A stretch of 64,000 nt of DNA from Escherichia coli. Its GTDB lineage: Bacteria > Pseudomonadota > Gammaproteobacteria > Enterobacterales > Enterobacteriaceae. Positions 12,090 through 37,868 of the stretch are shown here, one piece after another. Position 1 is the stretch's first letter, and every line of letters begins with the position of its first letter. The position numbers and the translations under genes are program-made. The notes beneath the pieces were generated by a model, which had not been told where the DNA came from, ran no database searches, and saw only the letters and a list, made by a program, of their open reading frames with translations. The stretch lies in assembly GCF_002854065.1 (NCBI RefSeq), contig NZ_CP024147.1. One strand, 5' to 3'.

Positions 12090-12105
12090 TTAAGATTATT
12101 CTGCT

Positions 12106-12513: not shown

Positions 12514-12563
12514 TGCTGCCAACTTACTGATTTAGTGTATGATGGTGTTTTTGAGGTGCTCCA

Positions 12564-14069: not shown

Positions 14070-15395
14070 AAGTACCGAACCCTGTTTTCTTCTTCACATG
14101 ACTACTCATTACAACTTTGTATGAAGTAAGATGCAAAATCATATTGTTTACATTAAGTTAAGCAATTATACCGTTTAAACAAAGACAATACGTCTCTTTA
14201 TTTCTCATAAAACCCAAATCCCTTACAGGGCTTATTGAAAAATTTAAAAATCACAAATTTCTCAATACTAAAAATGAGATCACATAAGAAATCAAAAAAC
14301 CTTCTCATCTATTTTAAGTTTTCCCAACGTAAAATAAGAGCTTTTATTAATAACTGAACCACTTTACTGTTCTATTTGTTCAGGTATTGCATTACGGTGT
14401 GCTGAGATCCATAGGTGCATCCCTGTATCCCGCGATGAGACTAAAATAGTCGTGATTTAAGCTCGTATCAGATTCTTAGTGAATACCACATTTGTTATAA
14501 TTAAGTGAAAAGATACATTGCTGATTTACATTTTTTGGTTTACAAAATGTCATCACTTACAGAGTTATCGCTGACATATACCTTTAATCTCTTAATCCTT
14601 TCGTGTTATTGCAATACAACCATCCATAAAGCAGGCTATTTTTAGCAGGAAATACTCAGGTGTCAACATTCGAACCCCAACCCTGAAATATTCATATAAA
14701 TTAATGATTTTTTCATTTATTCACACCTAATCAAAGTATTCAAATTCAGATGATTTTTCTGCTCAACAGACACAAACAGGCAATAATACTCTCCAAAGCG
14801 AACAATATTTGGCATTACGATTTAATGCTTCATAATCACCAAATCATTTAACTATAAATTTTCTTATTTTTAACGAAATGGTTGGTGTTTTTTTGGAATT
14901 AAAACACATACATAATATTAACATCTACCGACATTTCACTTTCCGCAAGACGAATGATTTCGAATCCTCATCTACGTTCTCCCATCCCAAATATCTTTAT
15001 TAATAGGCAGTAACGAACACTGTTATAGCAAGATTACCTTATTAACCTAATGGAATCCTTTATGTAACAAGTGAAAATAAATTCCTTAAAATTGATTCTC
15101 AGCAAATCTTAAAAGTTCTCATTATTCTGCAAAATCAGCTTTGCGAATAATCTTATGTTTTTGGGAATTTTGATCTGCTCATTGCTCTCGTGAAAAATAC
15201 AAACAAGAGAAAAAACGCCATTCGTCATGAAAAGAACAGACGTAGCAATGTAATAACATACTAAAATTGATCTCATGAAAGTGGGTGCTTTATAACCAGC
15301 ACAGAAGCTCAGACGTATAAATATTAAACAATTTGCATTGTAAAACGGAGACTATGTATTAAGAAGCCAATCGTAAAAACGGTTCCCTGGCGAGA

Positions 15396-15443
15396 TAAAC
15401 GACAAACAAATGGAAAGCCGGATGATATTTACCTTCATCCGGC
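15396..15443 (-). terminator. Putative rho-independent terminator after glcA
   Basis: Hairpin gccggatga / tcatccggc followed on the minus strand by tttccatttgtttgtcgttta. Confidence 0.5.
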
Positions 15444-15452
15444 ATTATTGAC

Positions 15453-17135
15453 TTACGAAACTAACATCCCGGTAAACACATACGCCTGCAACAGCGTGAT
15501 AATGCCGATAACGCTGGCAAAAATCAGACTGTGCTTCACGGTATAGCGGAACAGTTCAGATTCTCGGCCCACCATGCCCGTCGCGGCGCAGGCCACGGCG
15601 ATAGATTGCGGGGAGATCATCTTGCCAGTTACGCCGCCGCTGGTATTTGCTGCCACCAGCAGAGTGTCAGAGACGTTGATTTGCTGCGCCGTGGTCGATT
15701 GCAGTGAACCAAACAGGGCGTTAGAGGAGGTGTCCGAGCCGGTAAGGAATACGCCCAGCCAGCCGAGAAACGGTGAGAAGAACGGGAACATCACGCCTGT
15801 ACCTGCCAGTACCAGCGCCAGCGTGGTGGACATGCCGGAATAGTTGGTGACGAAAGCGAACGCCAGCACCATGCCAATCGACAATATCGGCCACTTCAGA
15901 CTAATTAGCGTTTCGGCAAAGACGCCAATCCCTTTCTTGATGCCCACGCCGAGGATGAAGATAGAGATAATCGCCGCAATAAAAATAGCGGTGCCGCCAG
16001 CCGAGAGGGGGTCGAATTTAAACACCGCATCCATCGGCGTTGGTTGGGCGACAATGGGTGCCGCTTTCAACACTTGTTGATGCAAATGAGGGATCTGGAA
16101 ATTAATCACCAGTGAATAAAACGCGCCGCCCGGAGCAAATAACGCTTTAAACGGCTTCATGGTCCAGATGGTGACCAGCACCGTTAAGATTAAAAACGGT
16201 GACCACGCTCGAATGATTTGCCCCAGACTATATTCTGAAGGCACGGGACCGCCAGAAGATGGCTTATTTACCACCATCGCACCTGCGGATTGTCCCATGC
16301 TGATTGCCGTTTCGGTATTTTTCGGCCGCCAGACTTTAAGGAATAAAGCGAGTGAGACGATACTCACCAGCGCCGAAGTAATATCCGGCAGTTCCGGACC
16401 AATATAATTAGAGGTAAAGAACTGAGTGACAGCGAAGCTTCCCCCAGCAACCAGCGCCGCTGGCCACGTCTCTTTCACCCCTTTCCAGCCGTCCATCATT
16501 GCTACCAGCCAGAACGGCACAAGAACCGACAGGAACGGTAACTGACGTCCCGCCATTGCGCCAATGTGGAACGGATCGATTCCCGTTACCTGACCGGCGA
16601 CCAGAATCGGCACGCCCAACGCACCAAACGCCACCGGCGCAGTATTGGCAATCAGACACAGCCCTGCCGCGTATAAAGGTTTGAAGCCCAGGCCCACCAG
16701 CAGAGCACCAGTAATCGCCACCGGAGCACCAAAGCCAGCCGCCCCTTCCAGCAGCGCGCCAAAGGAGAAACCAATCAGTAACACCTGCAAACGCTGATCG
16801 TCAGTGATGGAGATGACCGAGCTGCGGATAATATCAAACTGACCGCTGGCAACGGTTAATTTATAGAGGAATACCGCTGCAACAATAATCCAGGCAATAG
16901 GCCATAAACCATAAATAAAGCCATAGCCCGCAGCAGCAAATGCCATATCAATCGGCATTTTAAAGGCGAATATCGCAATCAGGATAGATAATATAAGGGT
17001 TATCGCTCCAGCGACATGTCCTTTCAGACGTAATACCGCGAGTGCAACGAAGAAGAATATTATCGGGATCAGGGCGACCAGAGCGGATAGCCCCAGTCCT
17101 CCCATCGGCATATACATTTGGGTCCAGGTAACCAT
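15453..17135 (-). CDS. glcA: Glycolate/lactate permease (LctP family), 560 aa
   Basis: Full-length polytopic ORF recognised as GlcA; last gene of the glc operon. Confidence 0.9.
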
Positions 17136-26041: not shown

Positions 26042-26411
26042 AGTTCTGTGGGTAACAAATAATTAACGGTGAAAAACAGGTTGCAACAGCAACGAACGGC
26101 ATCTTAATAATCAACCCAATGAATACAAACGACGAATAAATAGTATTTATTAATGATTACGATAGGGTCAGCGACTACGCAGAAGCGCCACAATGCCTTT
26201 TGTCGATTTAAGGCGACCGGACAAGGCTTCTTCTTAATATATTCATAAATTAAATATCATTCACAATAAAAACAAAAAACTTAAATTCATTATTTAAATC
26301 AATGTTCATTTTCACACCGATGAAAATACTATCTCATTTATCTTTTATGCCTATATAATCCACCGCATTATTGTCATTTTATTTTGGATATCCAATTTTT
26401 TCGTGGTGTAT

Positions 26412-28133
26412 ATGTCTAATAAAATCTTTACGCATTCCCTACCTATGCGCTATGCCGATTTTCCAACGCTGGTTGATGCTTTGGACTACGCCGCTCTGAG
26501 TAGCGCTGGAATGAATTTTTATGACAGACGTTGCCAACTTGAAGATCAACTGGAATATCAGACGTTAAAAGCGCGTGCCGAAGCTGGTGCGAAGCGGTTG
26601 TTATCGCTAAACCTGAAAAAAGGCGATCGCGTGGCGCTGATTGCCGAAACCAGTAGCGGGTTCGTAGAGGCTTTTTTTTCCTGCCAGTATGCCGGCTTAG
26701 TCGCCGTCCCGTTGGCGATTCCAATGGGCGTCGGTCAGCGGGATTCCTGGAGCGCCAAACTGCAGGGTTTACTGGCAAGTTGCCAGCCCGCTGCCATTAT
26801 CACTGGTGATGAGTGGTTGCCGCTGGTCAATGCCGCCACGCATAACAACCCCGAATTGCATGTATTAAGCCACGCCTGGTTTAAGGCATTACCGGAAGCT
26901 GATGTTGCGCTCCAGCGCCCAGTTCCGGACGATATCGCCTACCTCCAGTACACCTCCGGCAGCACCCGTTTTCCCCGTGGCGTCATTATCACCCATCGCG
27001 AAGTGATGGCTAATCTACGTGCTATAAGCCACGATGGCATTAAATTACGCCCTGGCGACCGCTGCGTCTCCTGGCTGCCTTTCTACCATGATATGGGACT
27101 GGTCGGCTTTCTCCTGACCCCGTTCGCCACGCAGCTTTCAGTAGATTATTTGCGCACTCAGGATTTTGCCATGCGTCCTCTGCAATGGCTTAAATTGATC
27201 AGTAAAAATCGCGGCACCGTTTCCGTTGCGCCGCCGTTTGGCTATGAATTGTGCCAGCGCCGCGTGAATGAAAAAGATCTCGCTGAACTGGATCTTTCCT
27301 GCTGGCGCGTCGCTGGTATTGGTGCAGAACCCATCTCCGCAGAACAACTCCATCAATTCGCTGAATGTTTCCGTCAGGTTAACTTTGACGATAAAACTTT
27401 CATGCCGTGCTACGGACTGGCAGAAAATGCGCTGGCTGTCAGTTTCTCTGATGAAGCCTCCGGGGTTGTGGTTAACGAAGTGGATCGCGACATCCTCGAA
27501 TATCAGGGTAAAGCCGTTGCGCCGGGTGCAGAGACACGCGCCGTATCGACTTTCGTCAACTGCGGTAAAGCGTTGCCGGAACATGGTATTGAAATCCGCA
27601 ATGAAGCAGGTATACCTGTCGCGGAACGTGTGGTAGGCCATATTTGCATCTCCGGCCCTAGCCTGATGAGCGGTTACTTTGGCGACCAGGTTTCACAAGA
27701 CGAGATTGCCGCGACGGGCTGGTTAGACACCGGGGACCTCGGTTATCTGCTGGACGGTTATCTGTATGTCACCGGACGCATTAAAGATCTGATTATTATT
27801 CGTGGCCGTAATATCTGGCCGCAGGATATTGAATATATTGCGGAACAGGAACCGGAAATTCATTCTGGCGATGCGATTGCTTTTGTTACCGCCCAGGAAA
27901 AAATCATTTTGCAGATCCAGTGTCGGATCAGCGATGAAGAACGTCGCGGGCAGCTTATCCACGCGCTGGCAGCACGGATCCAAAGCGAATTTGGCGTAAC
28001 AGCGGCTATCGATCTGTTGCCGCCCCACAGTATTCCCCGAACGTCCTCCGGTAAGCCTGCCCGTGCGGAAGCGAAAAAACGTTATCAGAAGGCTTATGCT
28101 GCCAGTCTTCATGTGCAGGAATCCCTGGCATGA
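26412..28133 (+). CDS. Fatty acyl-AMP ligase / acyl-CoA synthetase-like adenylating enzyme, about 573 aa
   Basis: AMP-binding core motif YTSGSTRFPRGVIITH and the overall architecture of ANL-superfamily enzymes; first gene of a 4-gene operon. Confidence 0.75.
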   Translation: MSNKIFTHSLPMRYADFPTLVDALDYAALSSAGMNFYDRRCQLEDQLEYQTLKARAEAGAKRLLSLNLKKGDRVALIAETSSGFVEAFFSCQYAGLVAVPLAIPMGVGQRDSWSAKLQGLLASCQPAAIITGDEWLPLVNAATHNNPELHVLSHAWFKALPEADVALQRPVPDDIAYLQYTSGSTRFPRGVIITHREVMANLRAISHDGIKLRPGDRCVSWLPFYHDMGLVGFLLTPFATQLSVDYLRTQDFAMRPLQWLKLISKNRGTVSVAPPFGYELCQRRVNEKDLAELDLSCWRVAGIGAEPISAEQLHQFAECFRQVNFDDKTFMPCYGLAENALAVSFSDEASGVVVNEVDRDILEYQGKAVAPGAETRAVSTFVNCGKALPEHGIEIRNEAGIPVAERVVGHICISGPSLMSGYFGDQVSQDEIAATGWLDTGDLGYLLDGYLYVTGRIKDLIIIRGRNIWPQDIEYIAEQEPEIHSGDAIAFVTAQEKIILQIQCRISDEERRGQLIHALAARIQSEFGVTAAIDLLPPHSIPRTSSGKPARAEAKKRYQKAYAASLHVQESLA

Positions 28134-29044
28134 ATCAAACTGTCGCGGTGACGGGCGCTACCGGGTTTATCGGTAAATATATTATCGATAACCTGCTCAC
28201 CCGCGGCTTTCACGTTCGCGCATTGACGCGTACTGCCCGCGCTCACGTCAATGATAATCTTACTTGGGTGCGCGGTTCGCTGGAAGATACACATTCGCTT
28301 AGCGAACTGGTTGCCGGAGCCAGCGCGGTGGTCCATTGCGCCGGGCAAGTGCGCGGACACAAAGAAGAGATTTTTACCCACTGTAACGTTGACGGCAGCC
28401 TGCGCCTGATGCAAGCAGCAAAAGAGAGCGGCTTTTGCCAACGTTTTCTGTTTATCTCTTCGCTGGCGGCGCGCCATCCCGAGCTCTCCTGGTACGCAAA
28501 TTCCAAACACGTCGCCGAACAACGGCTGACGGCAATGGCTGACGAAATTACGCTGGGCGTTTTTCGCCCGACAGCCGTGTATGGTCCCGGCGATAAAGAG
28601 TTAAAACCGCTGTTTGACTGGATGCTGCGCGGCCTGCTGCCACGACTTGGTGCACCAGATACACAGTTCTCTTTCCTGCATGTCACCGATTTTGCGCAAG
28701 CAGTGGGTCAGTGGTTAAGCGCCGAAACTGTACAGACGCAAACCTATGAATTATGCGATGGCGTCGCTGGCGGCTATGACTGGCAACGCGTACGACAGCT
28801 TGCCGCCGAAGCCCGTTGTGGTTCCGTGCGGATGGTTGGCCTTCCTCTGCCGGTACTCACCTGCCTTGCGGATATCAGTACTGCGTTGAGTCGCCTGGCA
28901 GGTAAAGAACCTATGCTGACCCGCTCGAAAATTCGTGAATTAACCCACGCCGACTGGTCGGCAAGTAATAACCGTATTTCTGAAGATATTAATTGTTTTC
29001 CCGGGATTAGCCTGGAACACGCATTACGCAACGGGCTATTTTGA
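28130..29044 (+). CDS. NAD(P)-dependent epimerase/dehydratase-family (SDR) oxidoreductase, 304 aa
   Basis: N-terminal Rossmann motif VTGATGFIGKYI; start overlaps the upstream stop (ATGA). Confidence 0.7.
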   Translation: MNQTVAVTGATGFIGKYIIDNLLTRGFHVRALTRTARAHVNDNLTWVRGSLEDTHSLSELVAGASAVVHCAGQVRGHKEEIFTHCNVDGSLRLMQAAKESGFCQRFLFISSLAARHPELSWYANSKHVAEQRLTAMADEITLGVFRPTAVYGPGDKELKPLFDWMLRGLLPRLGAPDTQFSFLHVTDFAQAVGQWLSAETVQTQTYELCDGVAGGYDWQRVRQLAAEARCGSVRMVGLPLPVLTCLADISTALSRLAGKEPMLTRSKIRELTHADWSASNNRISEDINCFPGISLEHALRNGLF

Positions 29045-29075
29045 TTGTCTTGTTTAAAGGTGTGTTAACGTTTCT

Positions 29076-29324
29076 ATGGTAAATCGTGAAATAGTAATGG
29101 ATTACATCCTTTCCTGTTTACAGGATTTGGTCGAAAACGGTGTGGAAATTAAGCCCGACAGCGATCTCGTCAACGATCTTGGCCTGGAGTCGATCAAAGT
29201 GATGGATCTCTTAATGATGCTGGAAGACAGATTCGATATTTCCATTCCTATTAATATTCTGCTGGATGTCAAAACCCCTGCGCAATTAATGGAAACTCTA
29301 CTTCCATGGCTGGAGAATAAATAA
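29076..29324 (+). CDS. Acyl carrier protein-like small protein, about 75-82 aa
   Basis: Phosphopantetheine-attachment-like motif DLGLESIKVMDL; acidic helical protein; start ambiguous (29076 or 29097). Confidence 0.6.
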   Translation: MVNREIVMDYILSCLQDLVENGVEIKPDSDLVNDLGLESIKVMDLLMMLEDRFDISIPINILLDVKTPAQLMETLLPWLENK

Positions 29325-30496
29325 TGGGGCTATACGATAAATATGCGCGCCTTGCTGGCGAGCGACTGCAATTTAGTGACAACGGGTTAACACCGTTTGG
29401 CACCTGTATTGATGAAGTGTATTCCGCCACCGAAGGCCGGATCGGCAATAAAAAAGTGATTCTGGCCGGGACCAATAATTACCTCGGTTTAACCTTTAAT
29501 CATGATGCCATCGCCGAAGGTCAGGCAGCGTTAGCGGCCCAAGGCACCGGCACCACCGGTTCTCGTATGGCAAACGGCAGTTATGCGCCGCACCTGGCGT
29601 TAGAGAAAGAGATTGCCGAGTTTTTCAATCGCCCTACCGCTATCGTTTTTTCAACCGGTTATACCGCTAATTTAGGCGTCATCAGCGCACTTGCCGACCA
29701 TAACGCCGTGGTGTTACTGGATGCCGACAGCCACGCCAGTATTTATGACGCCTGTTCTCTCGGTGGCGCGGAAATTATTCGTTTCCGCCATAACGATGCT
29801 AAAGATCTGGAACGGCGCATGGTTCGCCTCGGTGAACGGGCGAAAGAGGCGATTATCATCGTTGAGGGTATCTACAGCATGCTCGGTGACGTTGCGCCGC
29901 TGGCGGAAATTGTTGATATCAAACGTCGTCTCGGTGGTTATTTGATTGTCGATGAAGCGCATTCGTTTGGCGTGTTAGGCGCAACGGGGCGCGGACTGGC
30001 TGAAGCTGTCGGCGTTGAAGATGATGTGGATATTATCGTTGGCACCTTCAGTAAAAGTCTGGCCTCGATTGGCGGTTTTGCTGTCGGTTCGGAAGCGATG
30101 GAAGTACTGCGCTACGGCAGCCGCCCGTATATTTTTACCGCCTCTCCTTCTCCGTCCTGCATTGCGACCGTGCGCTCGTCGTTAAAAACTATTGCCACAC
30201 AACCAGAGCTGCGGCAAAAGCTGATGGATAACGCCAACCATCTGTATGACGGTCTGCAAAAACTGGGTTATGAGTTAAGTTCACATATTAGCCCGGTAGT
30301 GCCGGTAATAATCGGTTCGAAAGAGGAAGGTTTACGCATCTGGCGCGAGCTTATTTCGCTGGGCGTTTATGTGAATCTTATCCTGCCACCTGCCGCGCCT
30401 GCAGGCATCACGCTGCTGCGCTGTAGCGTAAACGCTGCCCACAGTCGTGAGCAAATCGATGCCATCATTCAGGCATTTGCTACTCTGAAGCAGTAA
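29324..30496 (+). CDS. PLP-dependent alpha-oxoamine synthase family enzyme (BioF / serine palmitoyltransferase / CqsA-like), 390 aa
   Basis: Class-II aminotransferase fold with lysine motif GTFSKSLASIGGF; start overlaps the ACP stop. Confidence 0.75.
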   Translation: MGLYDKYARLAGERLQFSDNGLTPFGTCIDEVYSATEGRIGNKKVILAGTNNYLGLTFNHDAIAEGQAALAAQGTGTTGSRMANGSYAPHLALEKEIAEFFNRPTAIVFSTGYTANLGVISALADHNAVVLLDADSHASIYDACSLGGAEIIRFRHNDAKDLERRMVRLGERAKEAIIIVEGIYSMLGDVAPLAEIVDIKRRLGGYLIVDEAHSFGVLGATGRGLAEAVGVEDDVDIIVGTFSKSLASIGGFAVGSEAMEVLRYGSRPYIFTASPSPSCIATVRSSLKTIATQPELRQKLMDNANHLYDGLQKLGYELSSHISPVVPVIIGSKEEGLRIWRELISLGVYVNLILPPAAPAGITLLRCSVNAAHSREQIDAIIQAFATLKQ

Positions 30497-30530
30497 TGTG
30501 AGCCCGCCGTGGTGTTGCGCCACGGCGGGT

Positions 30531-31610
30531 TTAATGTTGTCTGTCATACCAATACACCAGGCTCAACGCCACCAGCACAAACGCTATCGGTAAACCGAGC
30601 GCGGTAACAGGTGCGCTCAACGCAAATAGCAATCCCAGATTGACCATGATTTGATAGCTGATCCAGGTGAGTAAGCCAACGATGACACCTACAGCGAGAC
30701 GGCTACCCATCCCTGGCGAGCGCGGGGCACTAAAGGTAAACGGCACAGCCAGCAAAATCATCGCCAGGGTCAGGATGGGTTGCCCCAGTTTTTCCCACAG
30801 TGCAAGGCGGTATTCGCTGCTGGGTTGCCCGGTTTCCTGCAAATAATGGATGTAATGATTAAGCTGACGGACAGAAAAAGTATTCCCCGGCATCGATAGC
30901 TCTTCAAGATCCATACTGGTGAAGGCCGATTGCCAGGCAAGATTATCTGATGTTTCCAGCGTTTCTTTGCCATTCAGCCATTTTTTATGATTCACACCAT
31001 GCAGGATCCACGTTTTGTCGTCTTCAATGGTGGCACTGCGTGCATAAATGTAGGATTCGAGCGAAAGATCATCACGATAATGAAAAATCTCCACGCGCAC
31101 AGGCTGGCCCTGCTCGTTCAGCGATTTTACCGTCACAAATTCATTACCGCGCCTGGCCCACAGCATATTGCCGGTAATGTCATCGTCCTCACCCAACGCA
31201 GTGGCAGTCGATTTGATTTGCAGCGCCTGTTGCTGCAATGGCGACGCTACCCACTCATCTATCGCGCCTAACGAAACAGTCCACAATATCCCGGCAACCA
31301 GCGCCACCAGTGCAATACGGAAGATAGAAAACCCCGTGCTGCGAATGGCGGTAAGCTCACTGTTTTTCGATAACTGCCCCAGGCCAACAATCCCTCCCAA
31401 TAAGGCGATAAACGGCGAAAGTTCGACCAGTGTGCGCGGTAAGGTCATTAGCACCACCAGCACCGCCTGAGTCCAGCGATAACCGCCCGGGCTGACATCA
31501 TCCAGTTCGTTAATCAGGTTGAAGGTGGTAAAAAGCGGCAGCAATAGCCCTGCGGCGGCGGCAAAACCGAGAAAGAGATGACGGATTAAATAGCGACTGA
31601 AAACATTCAT
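30531..31610 (-). CDS. LptF/LptG-family (YjgP/YjgQ) permease paralog, about 359 aa
   Basis: N-terminus MNVFSRYLIRHLFLGFAAAAGLL resembles LptF/LptG; polytopic with a large central soluble loop; start set at the Met with overlap to the upstream gene stop. Confidence 0.55.
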   Translation of the reverse strand: MNVFSRYLIRHLFLGFAAAAGLLLPLFTTFNLINELDDVSPGGYRWTQAVLVVLMTLPRTLVELSPFIALLGGIVGLGQLSKNSELTAIRSTGFSIFRIALVALVAGILWTVSLGAIDEWVASPLQQQALQIKSTATALGEDDDITGNMLWARRGNEFVTVKSLNEQGQPVRVEIFHYRDDLSLESYIYARSATIEDDKTWILHGVNHKKWLNGKETLETSDNLAWQSAFTSMDLEELSMPGNTFSVRQLNHYIHYLQETGQPSSEYRLALWEKLGQPILTLAMILLAVPFTFSAPRSPGMGSRLAVGVIVGLLTWISYQIMVNLGLLFALSAPVTALGLPIAFVLVALSLVYWYDRQH

Positions 31611-32677
31611 CGGGAAAATTTCTGCAGCAAAGAGAAGTCGCGTGCGACCAGCATCAGCAGGCCCATTAGCATGAGTCCGGGCACTAACCACAAACCAGGA
31701 ATGAGAGGAATCGCGCCGTTAGCCACCAGCGTACGGCAGACGTCGCCGCCATAAAAAATGGCAATAAACAGCAACGTCAGTGGCAATAACGTTGAAAATC
31801 GCCCCTGCCGCGGTTTTACCCGACTTAATGAAATGGCCAGCAGCGCCATCAACAATGCTGTCAGGCCACGGCTTTGTCGCCATTGCAGTTCGGCATGATC
31901 GGCTGGAAAGACGGAGCGCGCCAGCTCCGTGACCGATTTCGCTTTGCGTTTGACGTTAGGGCTTTGATCCAGCGGATTCAGATGTAATTGCAGATTACGG
32001 TAGATCTGTTCGTTGTCGTCACGCCCCTGATGATCGAGAAGATAGGCAGTGCCGTTGTGCAACATAACAGTCGGTTTCTCGGGTGATGGGTCAACCACAT
32101 CAACCGAACGGGCGCGGAAAATGCGGGTTCGATTGGCAGTAGAAGTATAAATCAGCGCGTCAGTCAGGCGATTATTATCCTGATCAACCGTCTGCGAAAG
32201 GATCATTCGTCCGTTATCGTTAGTGTTAAATTTCTTTGCCCGCAACTGGCGAACATCCAGCTCCGACTGCGACTGCTGCTCCAGTTGATAAATCTGCGCA
32301 TAAGCCCACGGACGACCATACATCGACAGAAGGGTGACAAAAATACTTAGCGGTATCGCCAGATAAAGAACGGCTTTGTACAAGCGTCCCGGACTGCCCC
32401 CCGCCGCAGAGATAGCGGTAATTTCCGAGTCGGTATACATCTGCCCTAGCGTCACGCCAACTGACACATACAGTCCAACAGGTAACAACATCTCCAGTGC
32501 AATCAGCACTTTGTAGAAAACGATATCCAGCACAACATCAAGTGCTAATGTCCCATTTGCCGCTTCGGTCAGATAACGCTGTGCGGAGTAGCTGGCGAAA
32601 ATAAAGATCAGAAAACCGACGATAATCAGCACCAGACGGCGCGTACCACGCATGATGTAGTGTTCAACCAGCTTCAT
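31607..32677 (-). CDS. LptF/LptG-family (YjgP/YjgQ) permease paralog, 356 aa
   Basis: Same architecture as the adjacent gene; translationally coupled pair. Confidence 0.55.
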   Translation of the reverse strand: MKLVEHYIMRGTRRLVLIIVGFLIFIFASYSAQRYLTEAANGTLALDVVLDIVFYKVLIALEMLLPVGLYVSVGVTLGQMYTDSEITAISAAGGSPGRLYKAVLYLAIPLSIFVTLLSMYGRPWAYAQIYQLEQQSQSELDVRQLRAKKFNTNDNGRMILSQTVDQDNNRLTDALIYTSTANRTRIFRARSVDVVDPSPEKPTVMLHNGTAYLLDHQGRDDNEQIYRNLQLHLNPLDQSPNVKRKAKSVTELARSVFPADHAELQWRQSRGLTALLMALLAISLSRVKPRQGRFSTLLPLTLLFIAIFYGGDVCRTLVANGAIPLIPGLWLVPGLMLMGLLMLVARDFSLLQKFSR

Positions 32678-32707
32678 CTCACTAACGCCCTCAATCCTTT
32701 GAATTTT

Positions 32708-33271
32708 TTATTCATTGATCAGTTTCTGCGCCAGCGCAATGACATGATCTACCTCTTCCGGCGTCAGGCTGCCGTCCTTTGCCCACTGAATTTGCCCAGC
32801 TTTATTCAGCACCAGAATGGTTGAACTCTGCTCCGGCAAGCGCCAGGCAACGCGTCCCTGTCCATTGCCGTCAATAACGAATTGCGCCCACGGATAGCGG
32901 CGTTTATTTTTTTCGATTTTGCCAACGACAAAATAGCCAGTACCAAAGATGGCATCATCAGTGTTCACAATGGTGGTGGGCTGAAAACGATCCTGTGGAA
33001 AGTTTGCCGCTTCAACCGCTTTAATTAACAGTGAGTTCTTCTTCTTCGCTGACTTACGCCCGGCGATATACTGGATAATGCGGACTTTTCCCGCCAATTG
33101 TGTGCTGTTCCACTTTTGGTAGTGAATTTCGTCGTCGCTATTCAGAAGCAGCTCGCCGCCTTCCTGAATATAAACAGGGGTAACCGTTTTGCCAGTGACG
33201 AAATTGTGTGCCTGCACACCCGGGGCTAATAGCATGATAATCAGCGCAATAATCAAACGAGATGACATCAT
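32708..33271 (-). CDS. YtfJ-family secreted/periplasmic protein paralog, 187 aa
   Basis: Signal peptide MMSSRLIIALIIMLLAPGVQA; conserved blocks TTIVNTDDAI and WAKDGSLTPEEV resemble YtfJ (from memory). Confidence 0.5.
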   Translation of the reverse strand: MMSSRLIIALIIMLLAPGVQAHNFVTGKTVTPVYIQEGGELLLNSDDEIHYQKWNSTQLAGKVRIIQYIAGRKSAKKKNSLLIKAVEAANFPQDRFQPTTIVNTDDAIFGTGYFVVGKIEKNKRRYPWAQFVIDGNGQGRVAWRLPEQSSTILVLNKAGQIQWAKDGSLTPEEVDHVIALAQKLINE

Positions 33272-33279
33272 TGCTCCGG

Positions 33280-34104
33280 TTATAGCGGAAAACGCGAAAT
33301 CAGCAGCTCTAAGCGCTGACGAATATCGCTATCCAGCGCCACCGGTGCATCATACGACTGGCGGTTTTCCATATCATCCGCCACCATGTCGTCGTGTTTA
33401 TCCCCCATCAGGCCATTAATGGCGGCGAGGAAACGGGAAATCTGTAACGCCTCTTTATTTTCAGGATCAAGCGATCTTAAGGTGTCGTAATAAGAAACCT
33501 GCTGGCTGATGATTTTTCGCACATCATGAAATTCCCTGCCGGTTAGTCGCGGTTTGGCAATTATCTCTTTCAGGGCATGCATTTGCTTTTGCCGATAGGC
33601 AATAAAACCGCTTACGCTTTCTAACTGGCTATGGCGTAATGAATAGTTCACCAACGACCAGACCGGAGAGCTTAAATAAATTCGTAACAGGTTGCCGTAA
33701 TACGACACAATATTTTTCTTACCGTTACGAAATCCGTCCTGAAAACGTCCCAGAAAAACGGTCGTTTTGCCGAATAAAAATCCGGCCTGATGCTTCTTTA
33801 AATACAGCCGTTGCGCAAAACGCAGGTGCTTGTAGCGCGCTCGCATGTATTTAAACTGTTTACGCTCGTCTGTCGTCAGCTCATCGCCTTTGGCTTGTTT
33901 GCGAATTAAACGAAGTAATTCCTGGCGATCAACGCCATTGAGCCAGAATTGCAGGCATAACGCGTAATTATCATGGATGATTTCGGTGGTACAACTTAGT
34001 GCGATAGTCGGCGGCAAACTGACCTGGGCATCAACAACATCATCTTCCTCAATCGCAACAAATAGATGCTCGCTCGCCTCAAGCGGGAAATATTTTCTCA
34101 TCAT
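33280..34104 (-). CDS. Hypothetical protein, 274 aa, no recognised domain
   Basis: ORF in track, tightly packed between flanking genes of the same operon; coding-like composition. Confidence 0.5.
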   Translation of the reverse strand: MMRKYFPLEASEHLFVAIEEDDVVDAQVSLPPTIALSCTTEIIHDNYALCLQFWLNGVDRQELLRLIRKQAKGDELTTDERKQFKYMRARYKHLRFAQRLYLKKHQAGFLFGKTTVFLGRFQDGFRNGKKNIVSYYGNLLRIYLSSPVWSLVNYSLRHSQLESVSGFIAYRQKQMHALKEIIAKPRLTGREFHDVRKIISQQVSYYDTLRSLDPENKEALQISRFLAAINGLMGDKHDDMVADDMENRQSYDAPVALDSDIRQRLELLISRFPL

Positions 34105-35453
34105 CAGGATTTCTCTCCGGCTGCGTTATAAAGCAAGGAATGGCGCTGAAAAAATGCCTTTAAGGTCGGAATTAGCGAAAGCACCACATCCAGGCATTGA
34201 CCGCCGAAATAAGCAAACGCTGCTCCCAGCACGCCAAACAGATGACAGAACATGAACAGCAATACGATGTAGCCGATTGAGGCGATGGTTTGCGCCACGA
34301 GAAAAGCGCGCTGTTTTCCCGCCATCAATAGCAATGACTCCTGAGGGAAGCCCAGCATCGAGATCACAATTGCGCCCAGCATCACCTGAATCAGGTCATA
34401 CGCTTCGAGATACTTAACGCCAAACACCAGCGAAATGAGCGGCTTGCCGACGATCAACACCGCGAGCGCCACCAGAATACCGATTCCGCCCGCCAGTAAA
34501 CCGGACTTCACACCTAACAACCACGGTCTGGTGGTGCGCGGATCTAAACGCATCACCTCTGGGTAAAAACTTTTACCCAGCAAACCCGCTGGCGTTCCGG
34601 CGGCGTCGAAGAATGTCATGGCGATTTTAAATAACCCGGCGGCAGCGGGTCCTAACACGATCCCCACCAACACTGTGCTGCACGAGTTACGTGCCGACCA
34701 GATGGAGTGGGCAATGTTGGTTGACCAGACAAAACTCCACGCGCCTTTAATGTGTCGGGCAGACTCAAACAGATTCAATTTGAAGGCGTTATGGATATTT
34801 CTGCGGCGTAATTCGCGCGCGGCAAACCACCAGTACATGGTGCCGCCAACCAGATTCGACACGTACCAGGCAATAACAAAACCCGCAAAACCAAAGTCAA
34901 AATACCAGGCTGCGACGCTCCCCGCTGCGCGCAGAAAAGGTTTCGTCGCCTGCTGTACAGCAATCAAATCAAAGCGATCTACCGCACGCAGAATGCCGGT
35001 CGGCGTGGAGGAAGCCATTGAAGGAATGAGCGTGCAATACAGCGCCGCCAGCCAAAAGCTTTGGTCATCCAGACCTAATGAATGGGAAAGGAATGGCAGT
35101 AAGGCAATGCCGCCGACAATCGCCACCGCGCCGCTGACGATATCCAGCGAGAAGGAAAATGAGACGACATTGCGAAATTGCTGCGGATTATTGTTGGTCA
35201 AGGCTGGCGTTCCGTACTGAACCACCAGCTGCCATGTCTGAAACTTAATAAAATCGCTGATCGACTTGGCGTACGATTGTACAATCACCAGTACGCCAAA
35301 CATGGCGGGCGTCATCCCTTTACCGGCACACGAGAGCGCCAACAGACCCAGCAAGGCGCTCACGACATTACTGGAGCCTAACCAGGCGCTATTGCGAATA
35401 ATGGTGCGAAACGCGCCATCTGCAAACCAATGTTTGATGTTAAAACCCGCCAA
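34104..35453 (-). CDS. yghQ: Polytopic membrane protein, putative MOP-superfamily (Wzx/MATE-like) flippase; start codon uncertain (TTG in track)
   Basis: About 449-aa ORF with multiple hydrophobic segments; gene symbol by synteny with yghR/S/T. Confidence 0.5.
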   Translation of the reverse strand: MAGFNIKHWFADGAFRTIIRNSAWLGSSNVVSALLGLLALSCAGKGMTPAMFGVLVIVQSYAKSISDFIKFQTWQLVVQYGTPALTNNNPQQFRNVVSFSFSLDIVSGAVAIVGGIALLPFLSHSLGLDDQSFWLAALYCTLIPSMASSTPTGILRAVDRFDLIAVQQATKPFLRAAGSVAAWYFDFGFAGFVIAWYVSNLVGGTMYWWFAARELRRRNIHNAFKLNLFESARHIKGAWSFVWSTNIAHSIWSARNSCSTVLVGIVLGPAAAGLFKIAMTFFDAAGTPAGLLGKSFYPEVMRLDPRTTRPWLLGVKSGLLAGGIGILVALAVLIVGKPLISLVFGVKYLEAYDLIQVMLGAIVISMLGFPQESLLLMAGKQRAFLVAQTIASIGYIVLLFMFCHLFGVLGAAFAYFGGQCLDVVLSLIPTLKAFFQRHSLLYNAAGEKS

Positions 35454-35498: not shown

Positions 35499-36257
35499 TT
35501 AAGTTAAACTTCGGCGGTCAGAAACGATGGCAACCAGAGAAACCGCCTTCTGTGCCTGTTCCAGCACTTCGCTGTAGGGCGCTCTGGAATCAATCTCAAG
35601 AATTTTTGTGCCGTTATAGCCAATCGTCGACATAACACCGATTTTGTCCTGCAGCTCGGCATAGTCATGGTCAGGCTTGCGGGAGATGGCAGTCTCAATA
35701 TCAATGCCCAGGCGAATAATTAATTCCGGGCGATATTGCGCCATTTGTTGGTATAAACGCCGTTCGCGCTGCGCCAGAAACATGCTTATTTTCCCGGTCG
35801 CACGTTCGACGCCAATCCCCGGTCCATCATAATAAAAGCCCGAAATTTCAGCCTGCGGGAAGCGATCGCTGACCACCAGAACGCCACTTTGCGCCAGTCG
35901 CTGAACCTTGCGTAGATTCGCCATTCTTCGCAGCGAGAAGCAGTACATAATCACCGCCGCCCATAGCGCCGGAGATTTGGTTTTCATGCTTTGGGTTTTC
36001 GAGGATTTGGCCGCCAGTCGCCGTTCCAGCCAGACGCCAACCAACGGCAATCGTTTTATTTTGTCGCCGTCTTCGCCCGAGAGCAGCCCCAAATAGCGGC
36101 GCTCGGTTTGCCAGTGTTGTTGCAGCGATTTCACCAGGTCGGTGGTCAGTGTGGATTTACCGGTGCCATCACACCCGACCACCGCAATCAGCCCCGGAAT
36201 GTAGTTGGGCTGCGGCGCGGTTGTACTAATAACAGTTTGTGTTTGTAGTGCATCCAT
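35499..36257 (-). CDS. yghR: P-loop NTPase (kinase-like), paralog 1 of 3, 252 aa
   Basis: Walker A IAVVGCDGTGKSTLT; shares SDRFPQ...DGP and RKPDH blocks with the next two genes. Confidence 0.65.
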   Translation of the reverse strand: MDALQTQTVISTTAPQPNYIPGLIAVVGCDGTGKSTLTTDLVKSLQQHWQTERRYLGLLSGEDGDKIKRLPLVGVWLERRLAAKSSKTQSMKTKSPALWAAVIMYCFSLRRMANLRKVQRLAQSGVLVVSDRFPQAEISGFYYDGPGIGVERATGKISMFLAQRERRLYQQMAQYRPELIIRLGIDIETAISRKPDHDYAELQDKIGVMSTIGYNGTKILEIDSRAPYSEVLEQAQKAVSLVAIVSDRRSLT

Positions 36258-36288
36258 TCGTTAAATCATCCCCTATCCATTTTGGTGA

Positions 36289-37002
36289 TCAGGAAAGCGC
36301 GGCGTGAATTGCGCGTAGTGACGCTTGCATAATTTCATCGGCTGGTTGCCGACCATCCAGTTCAAGGATCTTTGCGCCATTGAATGTCAGTTGCGGCGTA
36401 ACGGCGATTTTTTCCTGTAACGCTGCCAGTTGGTGGTCAGGTTTACGCGCAAACGCGGTTTGTTCATCAATGCCAAGACGAATCAACAATACGGGCAAAT
36501 AAGACGCCATCCATTGGTACAGCTTCAGCTCGCGCTGCCTTAACATTTTTATCCAACCGTTACCGCCCGTGGTTTTTGCCAATTGCGGGCCATCAAAGCG
36601 AAAACCCGGCACTTCAACCTGCGGGTAGCGGTCGGTGATGAGCAGATAGCCTTGCTGGCTTTTACACAACATTTTGCGAAACTTGTACGCCCGCCAGCAG
36701 GAAAGCAGATAGATAACCAGCGCAGTAATATTGCCAGGCGGTGTTGAGGGTTTTTCGTGCACATGTGCCGCTTTACTTCGCAGATAACGCCCACAAGGTG
36801 CGCCAATAACAGGGAGCTGTGAAATCCATTCGCCAATTCGCCCGGACGATTGCCCGAGATAAATGCGTTCTGTTGGCATTCTTGCTGCCAGTTCATTTAC
36901 CAGGCTTGCCGTGAGGGTCGATTTACCTGAACCATCACATCCTACAATGGCAATAACACGCACTGGCGTGGAATTAATTATTGACATATTACGTTGATTC
37001 AC
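36289..37002 (-). CDS. yghS: P-loop NTPase (kinase-like), paralog 2 of 3, 237 aa
   Basis: Walker A IAIVGCDGSGKSTLT; TDRYPQ...DGP; RKPDH. Confidence 0.65.
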   Translation of the reverse strand: MNQRNMSIINSTPVRVIAIVGCDGSGKSTLTASLVNELAARMPTERIYLGQSSGRIGEWISQLPVIGAPCGRYLRSKAAHVHEKPSTPPGNITALVIYLLSCWRAYKFRKMLCKSQQGYLLITDRYPQVEVPGFRFDGPQLAKTTGGNGWIKMLRQRELKLYQWMASYLPVLLIRLGIDEQTAFARKPDHQLAALQEKIAVTPQLTFNGAKILELDGRQPADEIMQASLRAIHAALS

Positions 37003-37175
37003 GAAAAACCCGGCAGTAAATAATGTATTGAATATTACGTGATCCGTGCTCAGAATATCCGTTCAACCTTATTGTGACAATGGTTAATTGTGACATTGAC
37101 CTGAATTACGCTTTCATAAAAACATATTAACCAAATAAATATTTTGGATGGATATTTAAATTTAAGGATATATTC

Positions 37176-37868
37176 ATGCAGTCAATAACACCTCCATTAA
37201 TTGCCGTTATTGGTAGCGATGGTTCAGGCAAGTCAACGGTGTGTGAACATCTCATTACCGTTGTCGAAAAATATGGTGCTGCCGAAAGAGTTCATTTAGG
37301 AAAACAAGCCGGAAATGTCGGTCGTGCAGTGACAAAATTACCGTTGATGGGAAAATCCTTACATAAAACAATTGAACGAAATCAGGTGAAAACAGCAAAA
37401 AAATTGCCAGGACCAGTTCCGGCGCTGGTAATTACAGCGTTTGTCGCCCGTCGCTTACTGCGCTTTCTTCATATGCTTGCCTGTCGTCGTCGCGGGTTAA
37501 TTGTTCTAACCGACCGTTATCCTCAGGACCAAATTCCGGGCGCTTACGATGGTACGGTGTTCCCACCTAACGTTGAAGGTAGTCGTTTTGTCTCATGGCT
37601 GGCAAGCCAGGAACGTAAAGCGTTTCACTGGATGGCGAGCCATAAGCCTGATCTGGTCATCAAACTCAATGTTGACCTTGAAGTTGCCTGCGCGCGTAAA
37701 CCCGACCATAAACGGGAATCGCTGGCGAGGAAGATTGCCATAACGCCACAGTTAACCTTTGGTGGTGCACAACTGGTTGATATCGATGCTAATCAGCCAC
37801 TGGAAAAGGTGCTGGTTGATGCAGAAAAAGCGATTACGGATTTTATGACCGCGCGTGGTTATCACTAG
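37176..37868 (+). CDS. yghT: P-loop NTPase (kinase-like), paralog 3 of 3, 230 aa
   Basis: Walker [26 protein letters not shown]; divergent from yghS. Confidence 0.65.

What the first reader, a model, noticed from the sequence alone, without database searches (positions are those of the whole stretch)
30531..35453. Export-type module next to the lipid operon: tandem LptF/LptG-like permeases without an adjacent ATPase, a YtfJ-like periplasmic protein, an unknown protein and a flippase-like membrane protein
Five co-directional minus-strand genes are packed with overlapping or near-abutting boundaries (31607/31610, 34104/34104). The two permeases have the LptF/LptG (YjgP/YjgQ) architecture, yet no lptB-like ABC ATPase gene is in the window. 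Inference: a second, paralogous lipid extraction/transport system, distinct from the essential LPS Lpt machinery, dedicated to the product of the adjacent biosynthetic operon; it would have to borrow an ATPase encoded elsewhere, or act differently.
Basis: partly seen in the sequence, partly recalled or inferred. Interest (0 to 1): 0.65.

Follow-up and report, generated by a model that had tools for sequence, protein, structure and literature searches.

The report
E. coli sphingolipid export module (LptF2/LptG2)
Most E. coli strains carry, next to a ceramide-synthesis operon, a second diverged copy of the LptF/LptG membrane extractor plus a flippase and two odd accessory proteins; it very probably exports a sphingolipid by borrowing the cell's normal LptB motor, a model already published for Caulobacter but untested in E. 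coli.

Summary
Five intact, tightly packed minus-strand genes lie at 30531-35453, and the co-directional array continues through yghR and yghS to 37002. The window is the E. coli yghO-pitB interval, present in about 75-85% of complete E. coli genomes and lost from K-12 next to an IS5 element.

The two permeases pass NCBI's LptF and LptG models but are only 28-29% identical to E. coli's own LptF/LptG. They belong to an old, separate group. In 67 of 76 genomes sampled, this group sits within 10 kb of serine palmitoyltransferase or bacterial ceramide synthase genes.

The glutamates that dock onto LptB are invariant. Several residues that bind the lipid A phosphates and core are charge-reversed or lost. 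No LptB, LptC or LptA copy lies in the window or in any related locus.

It matches a model proposed in 2024 and tested in Caulobacter in an April 2026 preprint, whose figure already draws the E. coli locus, so novelty is low.

New here: the "unknown" protein has a CHAD-like fold and is translationally coupled to the MOP flippase YghQ. The YtfJ-like protein is a cysteine-free thioredoxin fold with a basic motif. Both occur only in the enterobacterial loci sampled, and the native lipid is unknown.

The parts
30531..31610 (-). lptG2: LptG-like permease, 359 aa
   Evidence: TIGR04408 LptG 306 bits (cutoff 240) over positions 2-350 of 351. 28% identical to K-12 LptG. Matches solved LptG chains at E about 1e-40 over the full length. 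3+3 hydrophobic segments around a periplasmic insert of about 160 aa. E85 aligns with LptG E88 and is kept in 76 of 77 clade members.
31607..32677 (-). lptF2: LptF-like permease, 356 aa, translationally coupled to lptG2
   Evidence: TIGR04407 LptF 318 bits (cutoff 230). 29% identical to K-12 LptF. Matches solved LptF chains at E 1e-32 to 1e-20. E85 aligns with LptF E84 and is invariant in 78 of 78. The position of LptF R212 is Ala here and is never Arg in the clade. ATGA overlap with lptG2.
32708..33268 (-). ytfJ2: secreted YtfJ-family protein, 186 aa; a cysteine-free thioredoxin-like fold
33280..34104 (-). unk274: cytoplasmic all-helical CHAD-like protein, 274 aa ('Ybl138' in UniProt names)
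34104..35453 (-). yghQ: MOP-superfamily (Wzx-like) flippase candidate, 449 aa
   Evidence: Pfam Polysacc_synt PF01943 at 9e-9 and Polysacc_synt_3 at 2e-7. Weak NCBIfam MOP flippase match. At least 7 hydrophobic segments by a crude scan. Caulobacter CC_1166 carries the same InterPro family, IPR002797. K-12 yghQ is the 3' remnant.
35499..37002 (-). yghR and yghS: two dTMP-kinase-like P-loop proteins continuing the same co-directional array
   Evidence: Gaps of 45 and 31 nt. A family profile matches thymidylate kinases at E 1e-6 and has a DRY-type motif. No ABC signature. Homologues sit in the enterobacterial loci and, as two copies, in Pseudomonas-type loci.
37176..37868 (+). yghT: third paralogous P-loop kinase-like gene, divergent from yghS
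30499..30533 (.). 16-bp GC-rich hairpin between the convergent spt and lptG2 genes; likely a shared bidirectional terminator
   Evidence: 16 pairs, 10 of them G-C, followed by a T-rich tail. This is a consensus match only.
26445..30496 (+). aasR (FAAL) - cerR (SDR reductase) - acpR - spt: the sphingoid-base/ceramide operon that supplies the substrate
   Evidence: NCBIfam: FAAL 873 bits; serine palmitoyltransferase NF047599 600 bits (cutoff 500). The E. coli B enzymes were characterised biochemically in PMC9386255.
24899..26041 (-). yghO: bacterial ceramide synthase (aca/bCerS) homologue
   Evidence: PMC9386255 names yghO (ECD_02850) as aca. It travels with lptF2G2 even in distant loci, at about 49% identity in Nitrosomonas and Salinisphaera.

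Best explanation
This is the transport half of E. coli's sphingolipid locus.

Proposed mechanism:
1. Ceramide, or a phosphorylated derivative, is made on the cytoplasmic face of the inner membrane by YghO, AasR, CerR, AcpR and Spt.
2. The MOP flippase YghQ moves the lipid to the periplasmic leaflet.
3. An LptF2-LptG2 heterodimer, powered by the housekeeping LptB dimer encoded elsewhere, extracts it from the membrane.
4. The lipid then passes through the beta-jellyroll domain onto the cell's existing Lpt bridge (LptA/LptDE, with or without LptC) and reaches the outer membrane.

Status of each step:
- Shown here: family membership, an orthologous group distinct from LptF/LptG, linkage to spt/bCerS across Proteobacteria, retained LptB-coupling glutamates, altered LPS-contact residues, no dedicated LptB/LptC/LptA, and purifying selection.
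- Shown by others, in Caulobacter only: the F2-G2 complex, binding to LptB, and spt-dependent essentiality.
- Inferred: all of this for E. coli, the flipping role of YghQ, and the periplasmic route.

Accessory proteins:
- The CHAD-like protein coupled to yghQ, together with the three dTMP-kinase-like proteins, most plausibly builds or handles a phosphate-rich head group on the cytoplasmic side.
- The Cys-free, basic-motif thioredoxin-fold YtfJ2 acts in the periplasm in an unknown, non-redox way.
For: Family and homology
- Curated HMMs are passed full-length: LptF 318 bits (cutoff 230) and LptG 306 bits (cutoff 240).
- Only 28-29% identity to E. coli's own LptF/LptG.
- 77 of 77 and 75 of 76 homologues from 76 genomes score closer to the paralogues than to the canonical proteins. 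Nitrosomonas, for example, scores 172-182 bits against LptF2 and 59-81 against LptF.

Genomic linkage
- LptF2 is followed directly by a co-oriented LptG2 in 76 of 76 loci.
- Spt or bCerS lies within the fetched flank in 67 of 76. Eight of the other nine have upstream flanks under 5.5 kb.
- A 55%-identity metagenomic homologue (L005) sits in a locus with the same ceramide core but a different flippase type and head-group genes.

Residues
- Coupling-helix Glu is kept in 78 of 78 (LptF2) and 76 of 77 (LptG2).
- Cavity residues LptG K34, K40 and K41 become D, N or E. R133 becomes L or I. LptF K322 becomes N.
- LptF R33 and K317 and LptG K62 and R136 stay basic.
- The roles of these residues, and the lethality of K34E, are from PMC6744409.

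Other
- No ABC ATPase, LptC or LptA in the window or in any locus.
- dN/dS is 0.03-0.15.
- Present in 4090-4642 of 5426 complete E. coli genomes.

Literature
- PMC9386255 for the E. coli Spt/AcpR/AasR activities.
- PMC11324152 for the LptC2/F2/G2 plus CC_1166 proposal.
- bioRxiv 10.64898/2026.04.12.717747 for genetics and pull-downs with LptB, and a figure showing the E. coli UTI89 locus.
Against: - Nothing has been tested in E. coli. With empty vectors, BL21(DE3) extracts made no detectable 3-oxo-sphinganine, so the native locus looks silent in the laboratory and its product is unknown.
- I could not compare the proteins directly with Caulobacter CCNA_01213/01214, because those sequences were not retrieved.
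- The E. coli locus lacks Caulobacter's head-group genes (DAGK-type ceramide kinase, Tam41-like protein, CDP-alcohol transferase) and LptC2, so the cargo may differ.
- The flipping role of YghQ rests only on family membership and position.
- One distant locus (L072, a Geobacter MAG) has a full upstream flank without spt or bCerS.
- The LptG-like protein of one deltaproteobacterial MAG (L071) is as close to canonical LptG as to LptG2.
Confidence: 0.75

Rival explanations
1. It is a spare or specialised LPS exporter, as the PGAP names 'LPS export ABC transporter permease LptF/LptG' imply. On this view it moves lipid A-core or an LPS variant rather than a sphingolipid.
For: Both proteins exceed the NCBIfam 'equivalog' cutoffs for LptF and LptG. 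Part of the phosphate-binding ring is kept: LptF R33 and K317, LptG K62 and R136.
Against: LptG K34, K40 and K41 are acidic or neutral throughout the clade, and K34E is lethal in the canonical protein. The inner-core contacts are lost. The genes travel with spt/bCerS, not with LPS genes. K-12 lacks them and grows normally. Identity to the canonical pair is only 28-29%.
Confidence: 0.04
2. It is a silent relic. The module is no longer used by E. coli and is being lost.
For: K-12 has lost everything from aasR to unk274 next to an IS5 element. Some strains carry LptF2-PitB or FAAL-LptF2 fusion ORFs or truncated copies. About 15-25% of complete genomes lack all or part of the region. BL21 with empty vector makes no detectable 3-oxo-sphinganine.
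Against: All module genes are intact in the window. dN/dS is 0.03-0.15 against sister Escherichia species. The gene set is kept at 50-88% protein identity across many enterobacterial genera. Translational-coupling junctions are preserved.
Confidence: 0.08
3. It does export the sphingolipid, but not as LptB2F2G2 feeding the standard Lpt bridge. For example, YtfJ2 might act as a soluble periplasmic lipid carrier, or a different energy source might be used.
For: No LptC2 or LptA2 exists in any locus. A secreted protein of unknown function, YtfJ2, is encoded immediately upstream of lptF2 in most enterobacterial loci. In Caulobacter, LptC2 did not co-purify with F2/G2, and the periplasmic route is explicitly unknown.
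Against: The coupling-helix glutamates that dock LptB are essentially invariant. YghR/S/T are dTMP-kinase-like and not ABC domains. YtfJ2 has a compact thioredoxin fold, not a beta-jellyroll or an obvious lipid-carrier fold. YtfJ2 is absent from all non-enterobacterial loci that still have LptF2G2.
Confidence: 0.12

Closest known systems
Caulobacter crescentus LptF2/LptG2 (CCNA_01214/01213), with LptC2: sphingolipid-locus paralogues that pair with the housekeeping LptB (Uchendu, Isom & Klein, bioRxiv 2026; proposed by Olea-Ozuna et al., PLoS Pathog 2024)
   Same: An LptF-like and an LptG-like gene in tandem inside a spt/bCerS locus. No dedicated lptB. A Polysacc_synt-family flippase candidate in the same locus (CC_1166 versus YghQ). 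The preprint's Fig. 2B draws the E. coli UTI89 locus with matching genes.
   Different: E. coli has no LptC2. It lacks the CPG2 head-group genes (DAGK-type ceramide kinase CpgB, Tam41-like CpgC, CDP-alcohol transferase CpgA, nucleotidyltransferases). In their place it has three dTMP-kinase-like proteins, a CHAD-like protein and a second YtfJ. No E. coli experiments exist, and direct sequence orthology was not tested here.
Canonical E. coli LptB2FGC lipopolysaccharide extractor
   Same: Same fold family (PF03739, TIGR04407/04408). Full-length alignment to solved LptF and LptG. F-then-G gene order with overlapping stop and start. Conserved coupling-helix Glu.
   Different: 28-29% identity. LptG K34/K40/K41 are charge-reversed, and R133 and the core-contact residues are lost. 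LptF R212 is replaced by Ala; in canonical LptF, R212G/S/C makes LptC dispensable when LptA is overexpressed (PMC9972910). The module is non-essential (absent from K-12) and linked to spt rather than to LPS genes.
Pseudomonas/Azotobacter-type sphingolipid loci (L005, L033, L052 and others)
   Same: Same ceramide core and the same LptF2-LptG2 pair at 50-61% identity, with two YghR-like P-loop proteins in some Pseudomonas loci.
   Different: An MsbA/HepA-like fused ABC exporter takes the place of the MOP flippase. These loci also have a DAGK_cat (CpgB-like) kinase, an NTP_transf_3 protein and an OlsC/LpxO-like hydroxylase. They have no YtfJ2, CHAD-like protein or YghQ.
CHAD domain proteins (Ricinus CHAD 6qv5, Streptomyces PptA 6rn5, E. 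coli YgiF C-terminal domain)
   Different: It does not reach the Pfam CHAD threshold (best E 0.087, in 1 of 28 members). It is fused to no TTM or other catalytic domain. It is translationally coupled to a membrane flippase. Polyphosphate binding is untested.

Membership tests
LptF/LptG permease family (PF03739; TIGR04407 / TIGR04408) | Full-length match to the curated family HMM above its cutoff | tested here: met
   LptF model 318 bits (cutoff 230); LptG model 306 bits (cutoff 240); cross-scores only 65-88 bits.
LptF/LptG permease family (PF03739; TIGR04407 / TIGR04408) | Six TM helices (3+3) flanking a periplasmic domain of about 150-180 aa | tested here: met
   Full-length alignment to solved LptF and LptG chains. 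The hydropathy scan gives 3+3 segments for LptG2 and 3+2 above threshold for LptF2, each with a large insert. The beta-jellyroll itself was not modelled.
LptF/LptG permease family (PF03739; TIGR04407 / TIGR04408) | Coupling-helix glutamate that docks into LptB (LptF E84, LptG E88; role recalled from the Lpt literature) | tested here: met
   Aligned Glu kept in 78 of 78 and 76 of 77 clade members.
Functional equivalog 'LPS export permease' (as PGAP names it) | Cationic residues that bind the lipid A 1'- and 4'-phosphates and the inner core (LptG K34, K40, K41, K62, R133, R136; LptF R33, K317, K322) | tested here: not met
   K34 becomes N (D or N in the clade), K40 becomes D, K41 becomes D, R133 becomes L and LptF K322 becomes N. 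Only R33, K317, K62 and R136 stay basic. Residue roles from PMC6744409.
Sphingolipid-locus LptF2/LptG2 (Caulobacter type) | Encoded within or beside a spt/bCerS sphingolipid locus, in addition to a housekeeping lptFG | tested here: met
   The window has yghO-aasR-cerR-acpR-spt adjacent. 67 of 76 related loci show the same linkage. The housekeeping lptFG is at a separate site in K-12.
Sphingolipid-locus LptF2/LptG2 (Caulobacter type) | No dedicated LptB; the complex uses the housekeeping LptB | tested here: inconclusive
   Absence of an ABC ATPase, LptC or LptA in the window and in 78 loci is shown. Physical use of LptB is shown only in Caulobacter and cannot be tested with these tools.
Sphingolipid-locus LptF2/LptG2 (Caulobacter type) | Sequence orthology to CCNA_01214/CCNA_01213 | not tested
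   The Caulobacter sequences were not among the 80 loci returned. I rely on the preprint's Fig. 2B legend.
Sphingolipid-locus LptF2/LptG2 (Caulobacter type) | Deletion tolerated only when sphingolipid (anionic head group) synthesis is blocked | not testable with these tools
   This is a genetic experiment.
MOP flippase superfamily (Wzx-like, Pfam Polysacc_synt) | Significant match to Polysacc_synt / MOP models and a polytopic (12-14 TM) architecture | tested here: inconclusive
   PF01943 at 9e-9 and PF13440 at 2e-7. The NCBIfam MOP match is 33 bits, far below its cutoff of 273. The crude hydropathy scan finds at least 7 segments.
YtfJ_HI0045 family (TIGR01626 / PF09695) | Match above the curated cutoff; secreted protein | tested here: met
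   212 bits (cutoff 151). 54% identity to K-12 YtfJ. An N-terminal hydrophobic segment precedes VQA|HNF.
Thiol-disulfide oxidoreductases / peroxiredoxins (thioredoxin-like fold) | Catalytic Cys (CxxC or peroxidatic Cys) | tested here: not met
CHAD domain (PF05235) | Sequence match to the Pfam model | tested here: not met
   No hit for the window protein. Best E is 0.087, in 1 of 28 family members.
CHAD domain (PF05235) | Two-four-helix-bundle CHAD fold | tested here: met
CHAD domain (PF05235) | Binding of inorganic polyphosphate | not testable with these tools
   This is a biochemical assay.

The most novel reading that the evidence does not exclude
Enterobacterales have rebuilt the sphingolipid pathway around a different, phosphate-rich head group. 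This is done with an accessory set not described in the sphingolipid papers I read: three dTMP-kinase-like P-loop enzymes, a CHAD-like protein physically coupled to the MOP flippase YghQ, and a Cys-free thioredoxin-fold periplasmic protein, YtfJ2. On this reading LptF2, which naturally lacks the Arg at the LptF R212 position, hands its cargo directly to LptA without any LptC. That would be a natural six-protein Lpt bridge competing with LPS for LptB, LptA and LptDE in most wild E. coli.
Probability: 0.2. Interest if true: 0.75.

Novelty: new member of a known kind. Interest (0 to 1): 0.4.

Why it matters
E. coli is the reference organism for outer-membrane biogenesis, yet K-12 has lost this locus next to an IS5 element. 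The fact that most natural E. coli encode a complete ceramide pathway plus a second LptFG-type extractor has therefore stayed off the standard map.

If the module is active under some condition, two consequences follow. Wild E. coli outer membranes contain a lipid class missing from all K-12 models. LPS and sphingolipid export would also compete for the same LptB, and probably for the same LptA and LptDE, which are current antibiotic targets.

E. coli also offers the best genetic and structural toolkit for settling the open question from the Caulobacter work: how sphingolipids cross the periplasm. The CHAD-like and YtfJ2 assignments give two concrete, testable handles on the unknown head group.

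Tried and rejected
Dead ends:
- A genome scan with a 21-sequence LptF2 alignment failed because no stretch was conserved enough. A 6-sequence alignment worked.
- The contexts of the two best distant representatives, P0127 and P0129, sat on contigs of about 2 kb and told me nothing.
- A profile search for distant Unk274 relatives listed only enterobacterial proteins. I therefore could not check the gene neighbourhoods of the Sphingomonas and Acetobacteraceae CHAD-like proteins. P0379 was not on record for a context look-up.
- Sequence searches of Unk274 and YtfJ2 against PDB chains found nothing significant. Only fold comparison worked.
- The Caulobacter locus was not among the 80 loci returned, so direct orthology was not tested.

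Ideas considered and rejected:
- YghR/S/T as the missing transporter ATPase. They have no ABC signature, they are thymidylate-kinase-like, and in Pseudomonas-type loci they sit beside an exporter that has its own ABC domain.
- YghR/S/T as homologues of the Caulobacter ceramide kinase CpgB. CpgB is a DAGK_cat enzyme with a GGDG motif.
- YtfJ2 as an LptC or LptA substitute. It has a thioredoxin fold, not a beta-jellyroll.
- YtfJ2 as a redox enzyme. It has no conserved Cys.
- Apparent absence of YtfJ2/Unk274/YghQ in the Rahnella, Erwinia sp. JUb26 and Pantoea coffeiphila loci. This is most likely an edge effect. Those loci end just after spt, and Unk274 homologues for Rahnella woolbedingensis and Pantoea coffeiphila are listed with longest-contig lengths equal to the L026 and L061 contigs.
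- The promoter and terminator scans were at background level and add nothing beyond the one strong hairpin.
- The yghQ variants reported in chlorhexidine-adapted K-12 concern the truncated remnant next to IS5 and were not complemented.

Full report
**1. What is there**

The window is E. coli chromosome. The order is glc operon, yghO, a plus-strand operon (aasR/FAAL, cerR, acpR, spt), a convergent minus-strand array (yghS, yghR, yghQ, a 274-aa ORF, a ytfJ paralogue, an lptF paralogue, an lptG paralogue), then yghT and pitB.

The five genes of the finding are intact and tightly packed. The lptF2 and lptG2 genes overlap by ATGA at 31607-31610. yghQ and the 274-aa ORF overlap by one base, TGATG, at 34104. 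The other gaps are 8-30 nt. The array continues upstream through yghR and yghS with gaps of 45 and 31 nt, so the functional unit is probably seven genes rather than five. The LptG-like gene most likely starts at the ATG at 31610.

A 16-bp GC-rich hairpin at 30499-30533 separates it from the convergent spt gene.

The 6-kb region is found in 4642 of 5426 complete E. coli genomes, and in 4090 of them at 80% coverage or more. In K-12 an IS5 element sits between yghO and a 5'-truncated yghQ, and everything from aasR to the 274-aa ORF is missing.

**2. Family assignments**

- The two permeases match NCBI's curated LptF and LptG models over their full length and above cutoff: 318 bits against 230, and 306 against 240.
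- They align end to end with solved LptF and LptG chains.
- They are only 29% and 28% identical to E. coli's own LptF and LptG.
- The third gene is a YtfJ-family protein (212 bits, cutoff 151), 54% identical to K-12 YtfJ.
- The fifth gene, YghQ, matches Pfam Polysacc_synt, the Wzx-type MOP flippase family.
- The fourth gene matches no Pfam or NCBIfam family.
- The neighbouring operon includes a fatty acyl-AMP ligase and a serine palmitoyltransferase that passes its curated model at 600 bits against a cutoff of 500.
- Padilla-Gomez et al. 2022 showed that the E. coli B versions of AasR, AcpR and Spt make 3-oxo-sphinganine, and they named yghO as the N-acyltransferase (PMC9386255).

**3. Is the module tied to the lipid operon?**

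A scan of one genome per species with an LptF2 alignment returned 76 loci. They come from Enterobacterales, Pseudomonas, Azotobacter, Nitrococcus, Nitrosomonas, Nitrosospira, Salinisphaera, Thiotrichales and others.

- In all 76 loci the LptF-like gene is followed directly by a co-oriented LptG-like gene.
- In 67 loci, Spt or the YghO/bCerS homologue lies within the fetched flank.
- Eight of the remaining nine have an upstream flank shorter than 5.5 kb. Only one, a Geobacter MAG, has a full upstream flank without these genes.
- Every LptF-like homologue (77 of 77) and 75 of 76 LptG-like homologues score closer to the window proteins than to E. coli's canonical LptF/LptG. This holds even at 33-39% identity.

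So this is an old orthologous group distinct from the housekeeping pair, and it travels with ceramide synthesis.

**4. No motor, no bridge**

- No ORF in the window has an ABC signature.
- E. coli LptB, LptA and LptC find nothing in the window.
- LptC and LptA find nothing in any of the 78 loci searched.
- The only LptB-like hits in the loci are generic ABC domains at 35% identity or less. Most belong to a fused MsbA-like exporter of about 575 aa beside spt in Pseudomonas-type loci.

**5. Residue-level reading**

The glutamates in the coupling helices (LptF E84, LptG E88) are kept in 78 of 78 and 76 of 77 clade members. Their role in docking into LptB is recalled from the Lpt literature.

Tang et al. 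2019 listed the residues that contact LPS in the cavity and showed that LptG K34E is lethal (PMC6744409). In the paralogue clade:

| Canonical residue | In the paralogue clade |
|---|---|
| LptG K34 | D or N |
| LptG K40 | D or E (76 of 77) |
| LptG K41 | D (71 of 77) |
| LptG R133 | L or I |
| LptF K322 | N |
| LptF R33 | stays basic |
| LptF K317 | stays basic |
| LptG K62 | stays basic |
| LptG R136 | stays basic |

My reading is inference: the cavity no longer fits lipid A-core but still suits a smaller anionic lipid.

LptF R212 is the site where G, S or C substitutions let E. coli live without LptC, provided LptA is overexpressed, by bridging LptF directly to LptA (PMC9972910). In the paralogue clade this position is A, S, G, T, I, L, V, H or W and is never Arg. 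P. aeruginosa's canonical LptF has Arg there (alignment). This is suggestive, given that no LptC2 exists, but it is only a hint.

**6. What the literature already says**

Olea-Ozuna et al. 2024 proposed that Caulobacter CC_1168, CC_1156 and CC_1155 (LptC2, LptF2, LptG2) and the IPR002797 flippase CC_1166 move phosphosphingolipids to the outer membrane (PMC11324152).

Uchendu, Isom and Klein (bioRxiv, April 2026) reported the following:
- lptF2, lptG2 and lptC2 can be deleted only in spt or cpgB mutant backgrounds.
- LptF2 and LptG2 co-purify with each other.
- Both bind the sole LptB.
- Their Figure 2B draws the E. coli UTI89 locus with matching genes, and they state that lptF2/G2 occur in many alpha- and gammaproteobacterial sphingolipid loci.

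It remains untested in E. coli.

**7. The accessory genes**

This is the part I did not find described in the sphingolipid papers I read.

*The 274-aa protein*
- It gives a confident AlphaFold model (pLDDT 92, pTM 0.89).
- Foldseek finds proteins annotated 'CHAD domain-containing' at TM 0.9 or above and 28-42% identity in Sphingomonas, Zymomonas, Acetobacter, Gluconobacter, Komagataeibacter and Pseudomonas veronii. Sphingomonas wittichii, Zymomonas mobilis and Gluconobacter oxydans are among the spt-carrying alphaproteobacteria listed in PMC9386255.
- It is basic (pI 9.2), has no TM segment, and has invariant Arg/Lys/His/Asp motifs.
- It stays co-oriented and abutting with yghQ even where that pair is inverted relative to lptF2G2, as in Sodalis and Rosenbergiella.
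- That CHAD domains bind polyphosphate is recalled knowledge, consistent with the PDB entries matched.

*YtfJ2*
- The family has no conserved cysteine. A near-invariant AGR-x-SAK-KKN motif lies where I expect the CxxC, judged from the position of the preceding strand; I did not check that register on a structural alignment.
- It therefore cannot be a thiol oxidoreductase, and it is not an LptC- or LptA-like beta-jellyroll.

*Distribution*
- YtfJ2, the CHAD-like protein and YghQ appear only in enterobacterial loci: 43 loci have at least one and 37 have all three.
- Profile searches find none of them near LptF2 elsewhere.

*Pseudomonas-type loci*
- These carry an MsbA-like exporter, a DAGK_cat kinase like Caulobacter's CpgB, a nucleotidyltransferase and an OlsC/LpxO-like hydroxylase.

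*YghR/S/T*
- These are thymidylate-kinase-like P-loop proteins, not ABC domains.

**8. Model**

Shown here: the family, the distinct orthologous group, linkage to the ceramide genes, retained LptB-coupling residues, altered LPS-contact residues, the absence of a dedicated ATPase or bridge protein, and purifying selection (dN/dS 0.03-0.15).

Inferred:
- Ceramide or a phosphorylated derivative is flipped by YghQ. An ABC exporter would do this job in Pseudomonas-type loci.
- LptB2-LptF2-LptG2 extracts the lipid.
- The lipid passes to the resident Lpt bridge.
- The CHAD-like protein and the three kinases act on the cytoplasmic side, on a phosphate-rich head group or its donor.
- YtfJ2 acts in the periplasm by a non-redox mechanism.

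The native product and the inducing condition are unknown. BL21 with empty vector makes no detectable 3-oxo-sphinganine.

**9. Rivals**

- A spare LPS exporter is unlikely, given the charge reversals, the linkage to spt and dispensability in K-12.
- A decaying relic is contradicted by strong purifying selection and conservation across genera. Individual lineages do lose the module, as shown by the K-12 IS5 deletion and by fusion or truncated ORFs in some strains.
- Export by a route other than LptB and the Lpt bridge cannot be excluded for the periplasmic step.

**10. Verdict**

I file it as a member of the Caulobacter-type sphingolipid LptF2/G2 kind that has not been characterised in E. coli, with a lineage-specific accessory set. 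The interest is moderate. It lies in the fact that the reference organism for envelope biology carries this system in most natural strains, and in the new CHAD-like and YtfJ2 leads.

Noticed in passing
window 35499-37868: Three paralogous thymidylate-kinase-like P-loop genes lie beside the module: yghR and yghS on the minus strand and yghT divergent. They share 31-40% identity with each other and are conserved with the locus across Enterobacterales. Some Pseudomonas-type loci have two copies next to the MsbA-like exporter (L005 57-815 and 832-1707). They are not ABC domains and not DAGK-type ceramide kinases, and their substrate is unknown.
   Followed up: partly
window 30499-30533: A 16-bp, GC-rich perfect hairpin lies exactly between the stop codons of the convergent spt and lptG2 genes. 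It is probably a bidirectional terminator shared by the two operons.
   Followed up: no
L083 (K-12) 4147-5341, versus window about 26042-34400: In K-12 MG1655, IS5LO sits between yghO and a 5'-truncated yghQ. The whole stretch from aasR to unk274 is missing, including spt, lptG2, lptF2 and ytfJ2. This explains why the locus is absent from standard K-12 models.
   Followed up: yes
proteins P0003-P0005, P0014-P0020 and P0105: Some E. coli and Shigella assemblies carry fused or truncated versions of lptF2. These include LptF2-PitB fusions (PF03739+PF01384, about 450 aa), FAAL-LptF2 fusions (556 aa), fused YtfJ2-LptF2 ORFs (553 aa, consistent with an in-frame stop loss) and a 238-aa Shigella boydii fragment. 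They point to independent deletions or stop losses in individual lineages.
   Followed up: no
L005 7998-14963; also L033, L075, L077, L078: Outside Enterobacterales there is a recurring gene order: bCerS, an NTP_transf_3-type nucleotidyltransferase (about 270-290 aa), lptF2, lptG2, a DAGK_cat lipid kinase, an unknown of about 321 aa, and an OlsC/LpxO-like acyl hydroxylase. An MsbA/HepA-like ABC exporter lies next to spt. This looks like the more widespread layout of the locus.
   Followed up: partly
window about 10000-16000: Flp/Tad-type pilus genes (Flp pilin, A24 peptidase, CpaB, a pilus assembly protein) and a winged-helix regulator lie upstream of the glc operon. GC content dips to 0.39 at 14001-16000, which suggests a separate horizontally acquired island.
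   Followed up: no
L084 4709-5263 (K-12 ytfJ) versus window 32708-33268: E. coli strains with this locus have two YtfJ paralogues that are 54% identical. The housekeeping YtfJ also lacks cysteines, shares the near-invariant AGR-x-SAK motif, and has no known function.
   Followed up: partly
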